Shown one piece after another: positions 19,101-28,100 of a stretch of 64,000 nt of DNA. A program made the position numbers. Origin of the DNA: Chrysemys picta bellii (Eukaryota); assembly GCF_011386835.1 (NCBI RefSeq), contig NC_088812.1, positions 11,780,001-11,844,000 of the forward strand. Direction: 5' to 3'. The stretch's first letter is position 1. Every line of letters begins with the position of its first letter.

Positions 19101-22100
19101 TGAGCCCGAAGGCCTTGGCCAGGCTCCTGCTGGGAGCTGCCTCCAGTCTCCTGGGGCCCAGGCCGGTGCCTCCACAAGGGCAGGTCAAACCCGCCCGTCC
19201 GGGGCATCACCCGTCCGGAGCATCGCCCGTGGGTTCTGCGGTGGGCGGAGGCCAGGCCAGGCTTAGCCCCTGGGTTTCAATGCCGCTGCCAGAGCCCAGG
19301 TGGAACGCTGCCCCTGCCGTAGGTCCTGTGGTGTCGACTTGAACCAGGCCCGAGCTGACCGGGGCACGCCAGTACTGGGGGAGCAAAGTGAGGGGTGGGG
19401 TGCATGGGGGGAGGAGATAGAAAGCCCCGCCTCCCCCCAAGACAGGGCAGTTGGAGCCCAGCAGCTGCCCCGGGTCCCTCCATGCTGCAGGCATGTGCCC
19501 GGGTGCGGTGGCCACGGGTACCAGGCCTGAGCCCTGCTTGTCTGACACGAGCGTTCTGCCCCCTGGGGTGAGTGATAGAGGTGGGGGTGGGTGGGGCTGG
19601 CACTTCAGCCCAGGGTGCAGGGGAAGGAGCGCTGGGGGGGGGGAACGTGGAGGGGGTCTCAAAATGTCACATGCCTGGGGACTGGGCTGGGGGGCACATC
19701 TGCAGGGTCTGCCAATCAGTTCCCCCCACTCAACGCTCCCCAGAGCTAGTGCTGCCCCTCAAATCCCCAGTGCTCCAAGCAGGTGGTTAGAGCAGGGGGC
19801 TGGGGGCCAGGACTCCTGGGTTCTGTCCGTGGCTCTGGGGAGGGAGTCTAGGGGGCCAGGACTCCTGGGTTCTATCCCCAGCTCGGGGAGGGGGTTTAGG
19901 GGTCCAGGAGCCAGGACTCCTGGATTCTATCCCCGGCTCTGGGAGGGGGAGGGAATCCAGGGGGCCAGGAGCTAGGACTCCTGGGTTCTATCCCCGGCTC
20001 TGGGGAGGGAATCCAGGGGGCCAGGAGCCAGGACTCCTGGGTTCTGTCCCTGGCTCTGGGGAAGGAGTCTAGGGGGCCAGGTGTCACGGAGTGTGGGGGA
20101 GTCAGGGCCCTGCACCCCTCTTCCTGAGATTCACTGTGACTCTCAACCAGCCAGTAAAGCAGAAGGTTTATTTAAGGACAGGAACACAGTCTCAAGCAGA
20201 GCGTGTAGGTACGACCAGACCCCCTCAATTAGGTCCCTCTGGGAGGTTCAGGGAGCTTAGACCCTAGCTTGGGGTTCCCTGCATTGCACCACCCAGCCCA
20301 ACCCGAAACTAAACCAAAACTCCTCCTGCTGCTCCTCTCCTTTGTTCAGTCTCCCGGGCAGAAGGTGTTAATTCTCCCCACCCCCGTTCCTGGCTCAGGT
20401 TACAGCTCAGGTAGCTTCCTTCAAGGGAAGTCCCACATCCCCACTGCAATCCCCCTGCAACATTCCCAGGTCAAATCTGCCCCGCTCCCTGCTCCGTCAC
20501 ATCTCTCCCCCCTTCGAGACTGAACTGAGCGGGGTCACTCTGCCCAGTGACCTGGGGAAGTTCAGGGCTCCCTCTCCGGGACAATGTGTCCGCTATCAGG
20601 TTGTCACGTCCCTTCACATGGACCACGTCCATGTCATAATCCTGCAGGAGCAGGCTCCATCTCAGGAGCTTGGCGTTGGCTCCTTTCATCTGGTGCAGCC
20701 AGGTCAGGGGAGAGTGGTCGGTGTGCACGGTGAAGTGACGCCCAAAGAGATATGGCTCTAGTTTCTTGAGGGCCCACACCATGGCCAGGCATTCCTTCTC
20801 GATGGCCGCGTGGTTCTGCTCCCGGGGTAGCAACTTCTTGCTCAGGTACACGATGGGGTGTCTCTCCCCCTTTTCATCCTCCTGCATTAACACCGCCCCC
20901 AGTCCCGTGTCTGAGGCGTCGGTGAACACCATAAAGGGCTTGTCAAAGTCTGGGTTTGCCAGAACTGGGCCACTGACCAGAGCCTCCTTCAGCGCCCGGA
21001 GAGCCTCCTGGCACTCCTCGGTCCAGACCACCTTGTCTGGCTTCCCCTTCTTGCACAGCTCAGTGATGGGGGCGGCTATGGCGCTAAAGTGGGGCACGAA
21101 CCTTCGATAGTACCCCGCCATCCCAATAAAGGCTTGGACCTGCTTTTTGGTTTGAGGAGCGGGCCAGTCTCTGATCACCTCCACTTTGGCTGGTTCCGGC
21201 TTTAGGCAGCTGCTCCCCACCCGGTGGCCTAGGTAGGATACCTCAGCCATCCCCACCTTGCACTTCTCCGGTTTTACAGTCAGCCCAGCCTCCTGGAGTC
21301 GGTCCAGCACTTGTCTAACCTGGGACATGCTGTCCTCCCAGGTCTTGCTAAAGACGCAGATGTCATCGATATACGCCACGGCAAAACTCTCCATCCCCCT
21401 CAGTAGCTGATCCACCAGGCGCTGGAAGGTGGCCGGCGCTCCCTTGAGGCCGAAGGGCAGGGTCAGGAACTCATAGAGCCCCAGAGGGGTGATAAAGGCC
21501 GATTTCAGCCTGGCATCTGCATCCAGCGGCACTTGCCAATAGCCCTTTGTAAGATCCATGGTGGTAAGGTACCGAGCACCTCCCAGCTTGTCTAGGAGCT
21601 CGTCCGGCCTGGGCATGGGGTAGGCATCGGCTACAGTGATGGCATTGAGCTTCCGATAGTCCACACAGAACCGGATCGACCCGTCCTTTTTGGGGACCAG
21701 CACCACCGGCGAGGCCCAAGGGCTGGAAGACGGCTGGATCACCCCCAAAGCCAGCATGTCATTGACCTCTCTTTCCAGGTCCTGAGCAGTTTTCCCTGTG
21801 ACTCGGAAGGGGGAGCATTTTATAGGTGGGTGCGATCCTGTCTGCACCCGGTGGACAGTCAGATTAGTGCGTCCAGGCTGGTTGGAAAACAGCTGTTGGT
21901 ACAGATGCAGCACCCCTCCGATCTCAGCTCGCTGGGCCGGGGTTAGCCGATCAGAGAGGGGAATTGCTTCCAGGGGGAAGCCAGCTCTTGTCCCAGGGAA
22001 TAGATCTACTAAAGGGTCATCTCCCTGCCCCTCCCAGTGTTCACACACGGCCAACACCACATTCCCCCTGTCATAATATGGCTTCATCATATTCACATGG

Positions 22101-25100: not shown

Positions 25101-28100
25101 AACCGTCTCTCTCTCACTCTTCAGCACGCCTGGTCCCCGTCAATCCCCCTTCGTTTTACTGCTCCCCAGTCACTTACTGCAGGAAGCGCCGTCCACGGGG
25201 TGCAGTAGATCCCACCGCTGCCACCAGTTGTCACGGAGTGTGGGGGAGTCAGGGCCCTGCACCCCTCTTCCTGAGATTCACTGTGACTCTCAACCAGCCA
25301 GTAAAGCAGAAGGTTTATTTAAGGACAGGAACACAGTCTCAAGCAGAGCGTGTAGGTACGACCAGACCCCCTCAATTAGGTCCCTCTGGGAGGTTCAGGG
25401 AGCTTAGACCCCAGCTTGGGGTTCCCTGCGTTGCACCACCCAGCCCAAACAGAAACTAAACCAAAACTCCTCCTGCTGCTCCTCTCCTTTGTTCAGTCTC
25501 CCGGGCAGAAGGTGTTAATTCTCCCCACCCCCTCCTGGCTCAGGTTACAGCTCAGGTAGCTTCCTTCAAGGGAAGTCCCACATCCCCACTGCAATCCCCC
25601 TGCAACATTCCCAGGTCAAATCTGCCCCGCTCCCTGCTCCGTCACACCAGGACTCCTGGGTTCTATCCCCAGCTCGGGGAGGGGGTTTAGGGGTCCAGGA
25701 GCCAGGACTCCTGGGTTCTATCCCTGGCTCGGGGAGGGGGAGGGAGTCCAGGGGGCCGGGAGCCAGGACTCCTGGGTTCTATCCCCGGCTCTGGGAGGGG
25801 GAGGGAGTCCAGGGGGCCAGGAGCCAGGACTCCTGGGTTCTATCCCCGGCTCGGGGAGGGGGAGGGGGTGTAGGGGGCCAGGAGCCGGGACTCCTGGGTT
25901 CTATCCCCGGCTCGGGGAGGGGGAGGGAGTGTAGGGGGCCAGGAGCCGGGACTCCTGGGTTCTATCCCCGGCTCTGGGAGGGGGAGGGGGTGTAGGGGGC
26001 CAGGACTCCTGCTTTGATTCTGGAACTTTGTTATAAGCCATGGCTGCAGCAGCTGTGAGGTGACAGGGCCCGATCCTGTGTCCCTTCCTGGCAGCAGCCT
26101 TTGCTCAGGGGTCTGCTGGGACCCCACTGCCGGAGCCCCCCTCCCCGCTCCCGGGCTGGAGGCTGGGGCCGGTTTCCCACCAGCCCATCCATCTCACATT
26201 GTCTCTGGGCAGGGGAGGGGGCGCAGCCCCGAGCCGCCCCAGCTCCCGTAATCCCATTACAGCCTCACGGCCCGAGCCGCCAGCCCGTCTTCGCCACATC
26301 ACGGCAACGGGGGCTGGTATGTGGGTGCAGGTGGTGGGGCCGCGGCCGGGGAATGACAGGCGTGGCCCAGACAATGGGAGCAGCGTCCCGGCGGAGGAAT
26401 AGCTGGCATGCCGATCCCGTCGCCCTGGGAGCCAGCCCCACAGCCCAGCCCACGCTCTGGCCCCCCGCGGCGCCTTGTGGTGCTGGGTGGCCCCACACCC
26501 CCGTGCTGCAGGGAGACGGGCAGGCTCCCAGCTGGACGCTGCTTGGCCTGGCAAAGCTGGTGCCCACAGGCCGGAGCACGAGCCTTCAGCTGAGCCCAAC
26601 CGGAGCTGGCTCCTCCGCCCAGCCCTAGAGCTGGCACTGCTGAGCGGGATGACTGGGGGGTGCAGCTCGCTGGGGCTGTCCCTGGTGAGAGGAGCAGCTG
26701 GAAACGCTTGTACAGCTCCTAGCACCTTCCTGAGCAGGGCCCCCGGCGCTGCCCCTGCACAGAACGAACGCAGCCTGCACGGCCCCGTCAGAGCACACGC
26801 GCTGGCCACACCAGGGTCCCTCAGACCCGGCAGCTCTGCACCAGGGTCGGTGCTTTACAGCCATGGTGCCTGGGGGGGACTGTTCCCGAGTGTGCGAGCC
26901 CATCCCCACCCTTGTGTGGCCACAGTCCAAGCGGGGCAGAGGGGCCTTCCCCGGACAGGAGCAGCCAGCAGGAGTGGCCGAGTGCATTCACACTGGTCAG
27001 CCTGGCCCCCTTTAGCTAGTCCAGTGTTCTTCAAGCCAGGCCACGGCTCAGCGAGGCCCCAGTTCTCAAGGGCACCGGTCAGTCACGAACTGGGCGGATG
27101 TGCACTATGGTGGGGCTGGACCCGGGCGCGGCCCTGCTGGGCCAGACAGCACACGCTGCATCATCTCACGGGCCTGGTCTGCACGCCCCAGAGCAGAGGA
27201 GCCCACCTCGGCCCTGGCCCGGCAGGTGCTGCGATGCGCTCGGGAGCCATGGACGGAGGCTACGCCCCAGCCCCATTCACAGGTATCCGCCCAAACCTCC
27301 TCCCCAGGGACCCGCCTCTTGCCAGCTGGGGCTGTGCGTGCGGTGGAAATGGCCTGCCCAGTTCTGCGTCCTGGCTCCGACCCTGCCACGGGGTCCCGGC
27401 ATGGCCACACCAGCACCGGACCTTTCTTTCTGGTGGGGAATTTCTCCTGTCAGACTCCGAGCTCTTTGGAGCAGGCCCTGGGCAGCACCCAGCCCGGCGG
27501 GGCCCAATCTGGCTGTGGCCTTAGGTACTGCCACCGTTGTGTAAATGATTATTTGTCTTCCCGTAGCGTCTGGGGGGCCCGGCTGAGCTCAGGGGCCCCA
27601 TCGCGCCGTGAGTTGCCCAGACACGCAGTGAGATGCGGTCCCTGCCTCCAGCCAGGAAGGAGCGTTAGCCCCGGCATGGAGGAGCTGAGGCCCAGGGCGA
27701 CGAGCTCGTTTGCCTAACATCACCCACAGGGCAGCAGCATGGCCGAGGACTTACCCTGGTGTCCTGGGCCCCAAGCACTAGATCGTCCCTCCCCGTCTGC
27801 AGCTGCTTCGGATGCCCGAAACACGGTTAGGGTCAGGGGCCTTAAACATGCCATTAGGTTGACTTTGTCTCTGGCAAGTCAAATCCTCAGCAAGCATTCG
27901 GGGCCCTGTTTGCAGCAGTGCTCTGTCCAGGCCGGCGGGGATGCTAATGCTGCGAGCTTCCCTCCAGCAGTGCCCTAGGAGCGCCAGCTGTAGGGAGCGG
28001 ATGGAAAGGGAGGAATTGTTGATGATTTGCTGCCACCTTCTGGTGCTGGGAGCTTGGTGCCTTAAAGCTCAGCATGCCCCAGATGCTCTGCTCCACCTCA

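What the first reader, a model, noticed from the sequence alone, without database searches (positions are those of the whole stretch)
20082..25646. Intact, young Ty3/Gypsy retrotransposon with the inverted (copia-like) pol order: a potentially active Gmr1-like element
Seen: one unbroken ~1.5-kaa ORF in the order Gag-PR-IN-RT-RH with all catalytic motifs present (DTG, HHCC, D-D-E, YIDD, RNase H D-E-D-D). LTRs differ by only ~4 substitutions plus a 2-bp indel. PBS, PPT and TSD are perfect. Established: gypsy-type RT with integrase upstream defines the Gmr1-like group of deuterostome elements. Inference: a recent, possibly still mobile and possibly polymorphic insertion in a gene-dense block. The family may be uncatalogued in this species.
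Basis: partly seen in the sequence, partly recalled or inferred. Interest (0 to 1): 0.65.

Follow-up and report, generated by a model that had tools for sequence, protein, structure and literature searches.

The report
Intact Gmr1-like retrotransposon in a turtle
This is a complete copy of a retrovirus-like jumping gene of the Gmr1 type, whose integrase gene sits ahead of its reverse transcriptase, in what looks like a turtle genome; the description is accurate, but this kind of element is already known to be common and full-length in turtles.

Summary
Window 20082-25646 (minus strand) is a 5,565-bp LTR retrotransposon. It has 418/420-bp LTRs (TG...CA) that differ by 4 substitutions and one 2-bp indel. 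It also has a 5-bp target duplication, an 18-nt TGG-initiated primer-binding site 2 nt after the 5' LTR, a 14-nt polypurine tract, and one uninterrupted 1,517-codon ORF (0 stops, 0 frameshifts).

Pfam and PDB matches give the order Gag (SCAN-like capsid, CCHC)-PR-IN-RT-RNase H. This order is permuted relative to Ty3, and all catalytic residues are kept. The closest protein is a Chrysemys picta bellii prediction (96%). Sea turtles and a softshell share the lineage. RT-RH groups with other integrase-first elements (179 of 200 bootstraps), apart from six canonical-order sequences. It is therefore a Gmr1-like Ty3/gypsy element.

This kind of element, and its abundance and full-length state in turtles, are already in print, so the find is ordinary. 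"Young" is relative: 0.96% LTR divergence means roughly 2-12 million years at slow reptile rates. Mobility, polymorphism, copy number, the primer tRNA and catalogue status could not be tested here. The clade is not restricted to deuterostomes.

The parts
20082..25646 (-). Whole LTR retrotransposon (5,565 bp)
   Evidence: Direct repeats and ORF; boundaries read
25647..25651 (.). Target-site duplication, copy next to the 5' LTR (CCTGG on the element strand)
25229..25646 (-). 5' LTR, 418 nt, TG...CA; termini 9 of 12 inverted; AATAAA at LTR position 328; no TATA[AT]A
25209..25226 (-). Primer-binding site, 18 nt starting TGG, 2 nt after the 5' LTR
   Evidence: The same 18-mer lies upstream of gypsy-like pol genes in 20 of 109 occurrences in an unrelated collection. 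It is also the complement of the 3' end of 4 cyanobacterial tRNA-Met(CAT) genes. The partner tRNA in the host is not identified
20471..25024 (-). Single gag-pol ORF, 1,517 codons plus stop, 0 internal stops, 0 frameshifts; the stop lies about 30 nt inside the 3' LTR
   Evidence: 96% identical to P0001
24233..24490 (-). SCAN-like capsid C-terminal domain of Gag (residues 179-264, numbered from the first ATG)
   Evidence: Pfam SCAN E 4.3e-11; PDB SCAN domains of ZNF24, PEG3 and ZNF42
24020..24070 (-). Nucleocapsid CCHC zinc knuckle (residues 319-335)
   Evidence: Pfam zf-CCHC; motif; C, C, H, C shared by 22-23 of 24 relatives
23465..23812 (-). Aspartic protease region (approximate bounds, residues about 405-520; DTG at 424-426)
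   Evidence: Motif; D424 shared by 23 of 24; protease Pfam hits at the same place in 4 of 14 relatives; no Pfam protease hit for this protein itself
22067..23152 (-). Integrase (residues 625-986): HHCC zinc domain, DD35E core, SH3-like C-terminal domain
   Evidence: Pfam; matches Ty3 Gag-Pol residues 1087-1447; H642, H649, C679, C682, D712, D772 and E808 shared by 24 of 24
21125..21844 (-). Reverse transcriptase (residues 1061-1300), YIDD
   Evidence: Pfam RVT_1; Ty3 RT is the best PDB match; D1157, D1220 and D1221 shared by 24 of 24
20549..21124 (-). RNase H (residues 1301-1492)
   Evidence: Pfam RT_RNaseH and RT_RNaseH_2; D1369 and E1402 shared by 24 of 24, D1436 by 23, D1479 by 22
20502..20515 (-). 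Polypurine tract, 14 purines directly upstream of the 3' LTR (inside the ORF)
20082..20501 (-). 3' LTR, 420 nt
20077..20081 (.). Target-site duplication, copy next to the 3' LTR
19802..20081 (+). Host minisatellite (56-61-bp units), left half of the interrupted array
25647..26005 (+). Host minisatellite (61-bp units), right half of the interrupted array

Best explanation
The region is one complete insertion of an autonomous LTR retrotransposon of the Gmr1-like branch of Ty3/gypsy (Metaviridae). It sits in a host minisatellite of what is most likely an emydid turtle genome.

The life cycle below is inferred from what is established for Ty3-type elements; it was not shown here. The 5' LTR drives a full-length RNA that ends at the polyadenylation signal in the 3' LTR. 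One Gag-Pol polyprotein is translated. Its aspartic protease releases a capsid with a SCAN-like C-terminal domain, a CCHC nucleocapsid, integrase, and RT-RNase H. A host tRNA annealed to the 18-nt site next to the 5' LTR primes minus-strand DNA, and the polypurine tract primes the plus strand. The DD35E integrase then inserts the copy and leaves a 5-bp duplication.

The only departure from Ty3 is that integrase is encoded before RT-RNase H.

Shown: the anatomy, the intact coding capacity, and the family relationship. Inferred: that the copy could still function. The insertion is a few million years old rather than new. The lineage itself has been inherited in turtles since before softshells, sea turtles and emydids split.
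For: Anatomy:
- LTR pair, TSD, PBS, PPT and a single open 1,517-codon ORF.

Domains and order:
- Pfam order is SCAN, CCHC, IN, RT, RNase H.
- The best PDB match is Ty3 Gag-Pol. The query's RT-RH (1061-1492) aligns to Ty3 591-1017, and the query's IN (625-986) aligns to Ty3 1087-1447. The order is therefore permuted.
- The SCAN-domain PDB hits fall at Gag 178-262.

Catalytic residues:
- They sit in columns shared by 22-24 of 24 relatives.
- The protein deviates at only 2 of 255 highly conserved columns.

Relatives:
- Of the 120 best protein hits, 106 have one IN followed by one RT-RH and 0 have the reverse. Nine are multi-hit models and 5 hold IN only.
- All 14 single-element proteins scanned with Pfam have IN before RT, and 11 of 14 have a SCAN hit.

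NJ trees of RT-RH:
- Window + Chrysemys, then + sea turtles, then + Pelodiscus: each 100 of 100. The turtle lineage as a whole: 200 of 200.
- The integrase-first versus canonical split: 179 of 200.

PBS:
- The same 18-mer precedes gypsy-like pol genes elsewhere.

Literature (passages read):
- Gmr1 is the Ty3/gypsy lineage with a copia-like integrase position (PMC2774666; PMC8220671).
- SCAN derives from Gmr1-like capsid (PMC8321522).
- Gmr1-like elements are full-length and abundant in turtles (PMC3670739; bioRxiv 10.1101/2025.03.03.638093).
Against: - No named Gmr1 reference sequence came back from any search, so placement next to Gmr1 of cod itself is not shown.
- One canonical-order chromodomain element (P0261) has an RT-RH as similar to the query (50%) as distant integrase-first members. 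RT similarity alone therefore does not separate the groups, and support for the split is 179 of 200, not full.
- The window protein gave no Pfam protease hit.
- The protein carries 2 private deviations at highly conserved columns, where its two closest relatives have 0. These could impair function.
- The closest database protein is 96% identical, not near-identical.
- No second copy, solo LTR or pol fragment lies elsewhere in the window.
- Four LTR substitutions at slow turtle rates argue against a very recent insertion.
- The partner tRNA is unidentified.
Confidence: 0.88

Rival explanations
1. The insertion is much older than the LTRs suggest. The two LTRs have been kept alike by gene conversion, so the copy is a fixed relic whose ORF is open by luck or because of recent conversion from other copies.
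For: The region is GC-rich and repeat-rich. LTR CpG observed/expected is low at 0.22-0.26, against 0.50 for the internal part, as expected for long-methylated DNA. The family is old in turtles.
Against: A 4.5-kb ORF with 0 stops and only 2 of 255 deviations at conserved columns is not expected after tens of millions of years without selection. The TSD and both flanks still match a paralogous unit exactly over 18 and 25 nt.
Confidence: 0.06
2. It is a host gene domesticated from a Gmr1-like element (like GIN1, KRBA2, SCAND3 or the SCAN zinc-finger genes), not a transposon copy.
For: Sources name several frog relatives 'Gypsy retrotransposon integrase-like protein 1'. Gmr1 is listed as the progenitor of GIN1, GIN2, KRBA2 and SCAND3 (PMC3670739 table).
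Against: Paired LTRs, TSD, PBS and PPT are all present, and the full Gag-PR-IN-RT-RH set is kept. Relatives form clusters of up to 577 member sequences in single species, which is not single-copy behaviour.
Confidence: 0.02
3. It is a Ty1/copia element or an endogenous retrovirus that was misread as gypsy-like.
For: The PR-IN-RT-RH order is the copia order. Foamy-virus integrases and retroviral RTs appear among the PDB matches.
Against: The RT matches Pfam RVT_1 with the gypsy-type RT_RNaseH and RT_RNaseH_2 domains, and no copia-type RT family was reported at E <= 0.01. Ty3 is by far the best PDB match, at 1e-138 against 1e-41 or weaker for retroviral entries. There is no room for env, because the pol ORF runs into the 3' LTR.
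Confidence: 0.01
4. The 'intact' copy is an assembly artefact: a collapse or chimera of several family copies.
For: The window has two N runs and a 99% inverted duplication next to one of them, so local assembly quality is uncertain.
Against: The element lies more than 5 kb from either N run and outside the inverted duplication. The matching TSD, and flanks that continue one minisatellite unit in register, fit a single true insertion.
Confidence: 0.03

Closest known systems
Gmr1 of Atlantic cod and the Gmr1-like clade of Ty3/gypsy (Metaviridae)
   Same: Gypsy-type RT-RNase H and integrase, with integrase encoded upstream of RT. Gag carries the SCAN-like capsid C-terminal domain. There is no env (definitions read in PMC2774666, PMC8220671, PMC8321522 and bioRxiv 10.1101/2025.03.03.638093).
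   Different: No direct sequence comparison with Gmr1 itself was possible. This copy belongs to a turtle-specific sub-lineage whose RT-RH is 50-64% identical to frog, lizard, echinoderm, amphioxus and sponge members.
Predicted protein LOC135981052 of Chrysemys picta bellii (P0001) and its sea-turtle and softshell relatives
   Same: Same domain set and order. Identity is 1486 of 1554 aligned positions (96%) over the whole protein. RT-RH identity is 97.9% to Chrysemys, 91.7-94.5% to sea turtles and 86% to Pelodiscus.
   Different: There are three in-frame length differences (19 gap positions) in the N-terminal, repeat-bearing part of Gag. P0001 has a 58-residue N-terminal extension that does not match this copy's leader or LTR.
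Ty3 of Saccharomyces cerevisiae (PDB 7q5b, 4ol8)
   Same: Closest solved structures for RT-RNase H (E 1e-138 and 9e-97) and integrase (E 8e-41).
   Different: The order of IN and RT-RH is swapped. The Gag differs: this one is SCAN-like.
Ty1/copia (Pseudoviridae)
   Same: The order of pol domains is PR-IN-RT-RH.
   Different: The RT, RNase H and integrase sequences are of the gypsy type.
Vertebrate SCAN-domain proteins and GIN1-type domesticated genes
   Same: The Gag C-terminal domain matches Pfam SCAN and the solved SCAN domains of ZNF24, PEG3 and ZNF42. Sources give relatives the GIN1-like name.
   Different: Those are single host genes without LTRs or a full pol. This is a complete element.

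Membership tests
Ty3/gypsy (Metaviridae) LTR retrotransposons | Paired LTRs ending TG...CA, a short target duplication, a PBS next to the 5' LTR and a PPT next to the 3' LTR | tested here: met
Ty3/gypsy (Metaviridae) LTR retrotransposons | RT, RNase H and integrase sequences of the gypsy type | tested here: met
   Pfam RVT_1, RT_RNaseH, RT_RNaseH_2, Integrase_H2C2 and SH3_Tf2-1. Ty3 is the best PDB match for both RT-RH and IN
Ty3/gypsy (Metaviridae) LTR retrotransposons | Canonical pol order PR-RT-RH-IN | tested here: not met
   IN (625-986) precedes RT-RH (1061-1492). This is the known exception that defines the Gmr1 lineage (PMC2774666)
Gmr1-like clade | Integrase encoded upstream of reverse transcriptase in a gypsy-type pol | tested here: met
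   The same order is seen in 106 of the 120 best hits, with none in the reverse order among single-element hits
Gmr1-like clade | RT (and IN) group phylogenetically with Gmr1 of Gadus morhua | not testable with these tools
   No named Gmr1 sequence was returned by any search. The available proxy is that RT-RH groups with 38 other integrase-first sequences against 6 canonical-order ones, 179 of 200 NJ bootstraps. Nine of those 38 were added; two of them were confirmed by Pfam and seven were called integrase-first only from the C-terminal position of RT-RH
Gmr1-like clade | Gag capsid C-terminal domain of the SCAN type | tested here: met
   Pfam SCAN E 4.3e-11. PDB SCAN domains with E from 1e-5 to 3e-3. 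SCAN hit in 11 of 14 integrase-first relatives
   Sponge proteins (Amphimedon, Halichondria) have the same order and SCAN-like Gag. An annelid Gmr1-clade family is reported in PMC8220671. The host here, a turtle, is a deuterostome
Ty1/copia (Pseudoviridae) | Copia-type RT and Gag sequences | tested here: not met
   No copia-type family among the 11 Pfam families at E <= 0.01. Among the solved structures, only a 'Copia VLP protein' zinc-knuckle stretch appeared, at E 0.81
Endogenous retroviruses | An env gene, or a remnant of one, between pol and the 3' LTR | tested here: not met
   The gag-pol ORF ends about 30 nt inside the 3' LTR, so no space is left
Currently mobile element | Coding capacity and cis signals intact | tested here: met
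   0 stops and 0 frameshifts. Catalytic residues are kept. The protein does have 2 of 255 deviations at conserved columns
Currently mobile element | Other near-identical copies in the same genome | tested here: inconclusive
   None in the window. The closest database protein is 96% identical, in a cluster of 29 member sequences at 90%.
Currently mobile element | Insertion polymorphism, transcripts, small RNAs | not testable with these tools
   No reads, haplotypes or expression data were available

The most novel reading that the evidence does not exclude
This turtle-specific Gmr1-like lineage is still transposing in living emydid turtles, and this copy is a segregating insertion. That would make it a live, autonomous Metaviridae element in an amniote that still carries the ancestral form of the SCAN capsid domain. 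It would have persisted by vertical descent since before the split of softshell, marine and pond turtles.
Probability: 0.15. Interest if true: 0.45.

Novelty: already known. Interest (0 to 1): 0.2.

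Why it matters
The main value is for annotation. The copy is a clean, fully delimited reference example of a turtle Gmr1-like element: LTRs, PBS, PPT, TSD and one open Gag-PR-IN-RT-RH frame.

Elements of this type are the source of the vertebrate SCAN domain and of GIN1-type genes. An intact reptile copy is therefore useful for comparing the ancestral capsid domain with its domesticated forms.

If the family were shown to be active, it would serve as a marker system and a source of structural variation in slowly evolving turtle genomes. 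None of this changes what is known about the kind of element.

Tried and rejected
- Emerson and Thomas 2011 (PMC3209298) is not held. I know it only through citations in PMC8321522 and PMC11011659.
- Primer tRNA. ARAGORN found only two 93-nt 'tRNA-Thr(agt)' calls in the window, and Rfam at gathering thresholds found nothing. Scanning the prokaryote genome collection with the 18-mer gave 108 loci. My arithmetic gives about 17 expected by chance for equal base frequencies.
- In 4 of those 108 loci the 18-mer is the complement of the 3' end of a cyanobacterial tRNA-Met(CAT) gene. This says nothing about which turtle tRNA is used. I recall, without any test, that the site looks like a vertebrate leucine-tRNA end. 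That stays unverified.
- The first bootstrap script timed out. I reran it with faster code.
- The full-library RT-RH search ranked long multi-RT gene models first, so it did not give a clean ranking by domain order. By my count of its table, 40 of the 150 listed hits have a single matched stretch. In 32 of these 40 the stretch ends within 30 residues of the C-terminus, which is the integrase-first layout. One (P0261) is a canonical-order chromodomain element.
- Pfam on 137 open frames of 145 residues or more outside the element gave 3 hits. This is too coarse to judge gene density.
- I considered copia, an endogenous retrovirus, a domesticated gene and an assembly chimera, and rejected them (see the rival explanations).
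Copy number, the orthologous site and the empty site therefore stay unchecked.
- Supplements were closed. Table S2 and file S2 of PMC3670739, and figure S1 of the 2025 preprint, may list this very family.

Full report
**1. What is there**

The element lies on the minus strand. A direct-repeat search and a pairwise alignment show two long terminal repeats, at 25646->25229 (418 nt) and 20501->20082 (420 nt). They begin with TG and end with CA. They differ by four substitutions (two transitions and two transversions, two of them in CpG context) and one 2-bp indel. The Kimura distance is 0.0096.

Between the LTRs lies one open reading frame with no internal stop. It has 1,548 codons from the first GTG and 1,517 from the first ATG at 25024. 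It ends at 20471, about 30 nt inside the 3' LTR. No gene of the element is broken: 0 stops and 0 frameshifts.

Two nucleotides after the 5' LTR comes an 18-nt stretch beginning with TGG (25226->25209). Directly before the 3' LTR lies a 14-nt purine run. The LTR carries AATAAA at position 328 of 418 and has no TATA[AT]A match. Its termini are inverted in 9 of 12 positions.

**2. The insertion site**

The element interrupts a host minisatellite of 56-61-bp units (19802-20081 and 25647-26005). Both flanks carry CCAGG on the plus strand (CCTGG on the element strand) next to the LTRs.

I compared the two flanks separately with the rest of the array. The last 18 nt of the left flank recur exactly at 19843-19860. 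The first 25 nt of the right flank recur exactly at 19856-19880. So an uninterrupted paralogous unit holds both flanks, overlapping by exactly the five duplicated bases.

This supports a true 5-bp target duplication. The caveat is that the pentamer is common in the array: 21 occurrences in 639 nt, and 1.4% of random pentamer pairs between the two flanks agree.

**3. Coding content and order**

Pfam finds the following, in this order and numbered from the GTG:
- SCAN (210-295)
- zf-CCHC (350-366)
- Integrase_H2C2 (660-716)
- rve (735-832)
- SH3_Tf2-1 (966-1014)
- RVT_1 (1141-1300)
- RT_RNaseH (1365-1494)

Subtract 31 for numbering from the ATG.

The best solved-structure match is the Ty3 Gag-Pol polyprotein (7q5b, E 1.3e-138). 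The query's RT-RNase H (1061-1492, ATG numbering) aligns to Ty3 residues 591-1017. The query's integrase (625-986) aligns to Ty3 residues 1087-1447. The two blocks are thus swapped relative to Ty3, which shows the permutation directly.

The Gag segment 178-262 matches the solved SCAN domains of ZNF24, PEG3 and ZNF42 (E from 1e-5 to 3e-3).

The motifs DTG, CCHC, HHCC and YIDD are present. In an alignment with 23 relatives spanning turtles, alligator, lizards, frogs, a salamander, echinoderms, amphioxus and sponges:
- The integrase H, H, C, C and D, D-35-E residues are shared by 24 of 24.
- The RT aspartates are shared by 24 of 24.
- Two of the RNase H acidic residues are shared by 24 of 24; the other two by 23 and 22.
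- The protease aspartate is shared by 23.

The window protein itself gave no Pfam protease hit at E <= 0.01. Four of 14 relatives do give one at the equivalent position.

Leaving each sequence out in turn, the window protein differs from the residue shared by at least 21 of the other 23 at 2 of 255 such columns. Its two closest relatives differ at 0. I give only the count.

**4. Relatives**

A protein search with the whole ORF returned 2,561 proteins at E <= 0.001 among 8,000 scored candidates.
- The best hit is a predicted protein of Chrysemys picta bellii (P0001, 96% identity, in a cluster of 29 member sequences).
- Next come Caretta, Natator and Lepidochelys proteins at about 79-84%, in clusters of up to 577 members.
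- Then come Chelonoidis and Pelodiscus, frogs (45-58%), alligator, lizards, echinoderms, amphioxus and sponges (about 39-46%).
- Sources name several frog hits 'Gypsy retrotransposon integrase-like protein 1'.

Against P0001 the ORF has 1486 of 1554 identities. Three in-frame length differences (19 gap positions) lie in the N-terminal part of Gag, which also holds an in-frame 33-bp tandem repeat. P0001's extra 58 N-terminal residues do not match this copy's leader or LTR.

Of the 120 listed hits:
- 106 have one integrase segment followed by one RT-RH segment.
- None has the reverse order as a single pair.
- Nine give several segments. Four of these are arachnid gene models of about 2,500 residues holding two canonical-order elements; three of the four were also scanned with Pfam.
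- Five hold integrase only.

**5. Phylogeny**

The first neighbour-joining tree of RT-RH used 34 sequences and 420 columns. It put the window next to Chrysemys, then the sea turtles, then Pelodiscus, each at 100 of 100 bootstraps. This order is the accepted branching of those turtle groups and fits long vertical descent.

A full-library search with RT-RH found 39,214 representatives at E <= 1e-30. Long multi-RT gene models headed its list. By my count, 40 of the 150 listed hits have a single matched stretch. Of these 40:
- 32 end within 30 residues of the C-terminus, which is the integrase-first layout.
- One, P0261, proved to be a canonical-order element with a chromodomain. Its RT-RH is 50% identical to the query, as close as distant integrase-first members.

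I added P0261, one more canonical sequence and nine further integrase-first representatives to the tree. Two of the nine were confirmed by Pfam. The other seven were judged integrase-first only from the C-terminal position of RT-RH. With these additions the split between 39 integrase-first and 6 canonical sequences was recovered in 179 of 200 bootstraps. The turtle lineage was recovered in 200 of 200.

No sequence named Gmr1 was returned by any tool, so I did not show placement beside the cod element itself.

**6. The primer-binding site**

No turtle tRNA set was available. The window holds no convincing tRNA.

Scanning the prokaryote genome collection with the 18-mer gave 108 loci. My arithmetic gives about 17 expected by chance.
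- In 4 of 108 loci, the 18-mer is the complement of the exact 3' end of a tRNA-Met(CAT) gene in Nostocales tRNA clusters.
- 25 of 108 loci carry gypsy-like pol genes. They sit on contigs filed under bacterial bins of the kind associated with marine invertebrates, which I take for host contamination.
- In 20 of 109 occurrences, a pol gene follows on the same strand. In 12 of these 20, the extrapolated start of the reading frame lies within about 310 nt downstream. Typically CA plus one or two bases precede the 18-mer.
- Some of these elements have the canonical order, for example L062 and L082.

So the 18-mer is a primer-binding site that many gypsy-type elements share. Which tRNA it pairs with in the host is unresolved, and so is whether the pairing is perfect.

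**7. Age**

With T = K/2r and K = 0.0096:
- about 12 million years at 3.9e-10 per site per year, the rate used for crocodilian LTR dating (PMC4299795, passage);
- about 5 million years at 1e-9;
- about 2.4 million years at 2e-9.

The painted-turtle genome paper states that turtles evolve at about one third of the human rate (PMC4054807, passage).

Four substitutions carry a wide sampling error, and two of them lie in CpG context. The copy is young by LTR identity but probably millions of years old. That makes polymorphism less likely, though it does not exclude it.

**8. Comparison with what is known**

The passages I read say the following:
- Gmr1 is the Ty3/gypsy lineage with the copia-like integrase position (PMC2774666; PMC8220671).
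- The SCAN domain came from the capsid C-terminus of a Gmr1-like element (PMC8321522).
- Gmr1 is among the Metaviridae clades still represented by full-length elements in turtles and other reptiles (PMC3670739).
- The painted turtle is listed among genomes where metaviruses are still active (PMC11011659).
- About 200 Gmr1-like copies occur in a frog genome (PMC4131045).
- A Repbase Reports note on painted-turtle LTR retrotransposons is cited in PMC4299795. I could not see it.

The element is thus a member of an already described kind in an already described host group.

My searches for 'Gmr1' with 'turtle', and for 'Chrysemys', 'Gypsy', 'Repbase' and 'full-length', found no paper that names this particular family. 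Supplements and Repbase were out of reach, so I make no claim that it is unnamed.

**9. What stays open**

- Present mobility, transcription, copy number in the source genome, the state of the orthologous site in other turtles, the primer tRNA, and catalogue status.
- The N runs (13899-14398 and 51105-51604) were left as they are.

**10. Verdict**

The claims of recency, mobility and novelty are not established. Interest is low, because the finding is a well-preserved example of a known kind.

Noticed in passing
window 34385-44233 and 51873-64000: A large inverted duplication, 99-100% complementary in eight blocks. It runs off the window end and is centred near 48-49 kb, beside the N run 51105-51604. 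It could be a real palindrome or an assembly artefact. The element lies outside it.
   Followed up: partly
window 39365-42200 and 53966-58902: Two arrays of one 43-bp satellite in opposite orientation (about 70 and about 115 copies). One is G-rich on the plus strand and the other C-rich. They explain the GC-skew extremes of +0.86 and -0.92. They form part of the inverted duplication.
   Followed up: partly
window 36863-36955 (-) and 61403-61495 (+): Two 93-nt ARAGORN 'tRNA-Thr(agt)' calls. They are mirror copies, 98% identical over about 220 nt, inside the inverted duplication. Rfam at gathering thresholds reports no tRNA or any other family in the window, so they are probably not real tRNA genes.
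   Followed up: partly
window 9596, 13272-13898, 17852-18163, 19802-20081, 25647-26005, 28240-28840, 42585, 53558: The core motif of the target minisatellite recurs 32 times (3 or fewer mismatches in 24 nt; none expected by chance). It occurs in several separate arrays with periods of 46-47, 56-61, 77 and 221 bp. This looks like a family of minisatellites built on one core. Whether the element prefers such targets cannot be judged from one copy.
   Followed up: partly
window 724-1563 (+), 5577-6056 (-), 61949-63097 (+): These are the only Pfam hits among 137 open frames of 145 residues or more outside the element: Guanylate_kin, Helicase_C and NYD-SP28_assoc. They are probably exons of three host genes. 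The genes were not identified.
   Followed up: no
window 24792-24862: An in-frame 33-bp tandem repeat (2.2 copies) in the N-terminal part of Gag. The length differences from the closest Chrysemys protein fall in this N-terminal region, which suggests a variable repeat within Gag.
   Followed up: partly
loci L001, L014, L019, L022, L024, L031, L037, L044, L051, L057, L077, L085, L090, L092 and others (25 of 108): Contigs filed under bacterial bins (Ekhidna, Rubritalea, Sedimenticola, Thiodiazotropha and others) carry gypsy-like pol genes. Many have the integrase-first order and the same 18-nt primer-binding site. This is most simply explained as animal-host DNA mis-binned into bacterial genomes.
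   Followed up: partly
proteins P0020, P0029, P0031 (Chrysemys picta bellii): Proteins of about 900 residues, 79-84% identical to the query. They hold only the SCAN domain and the integrase zinc domain, and match just the first 87 residues of the integrase segment. They could be truncated copies or derived genes.
   Followed up: no
window 20082-25646 versus flanks: CpG observed/expected is 0.22-0.26 in the LTRs and 0.50 in the internal part, against 0.39-0.40 in the 5-kb flanks. The element's GC content (0.59) is below that of the window (0.65).
   Followed up: no
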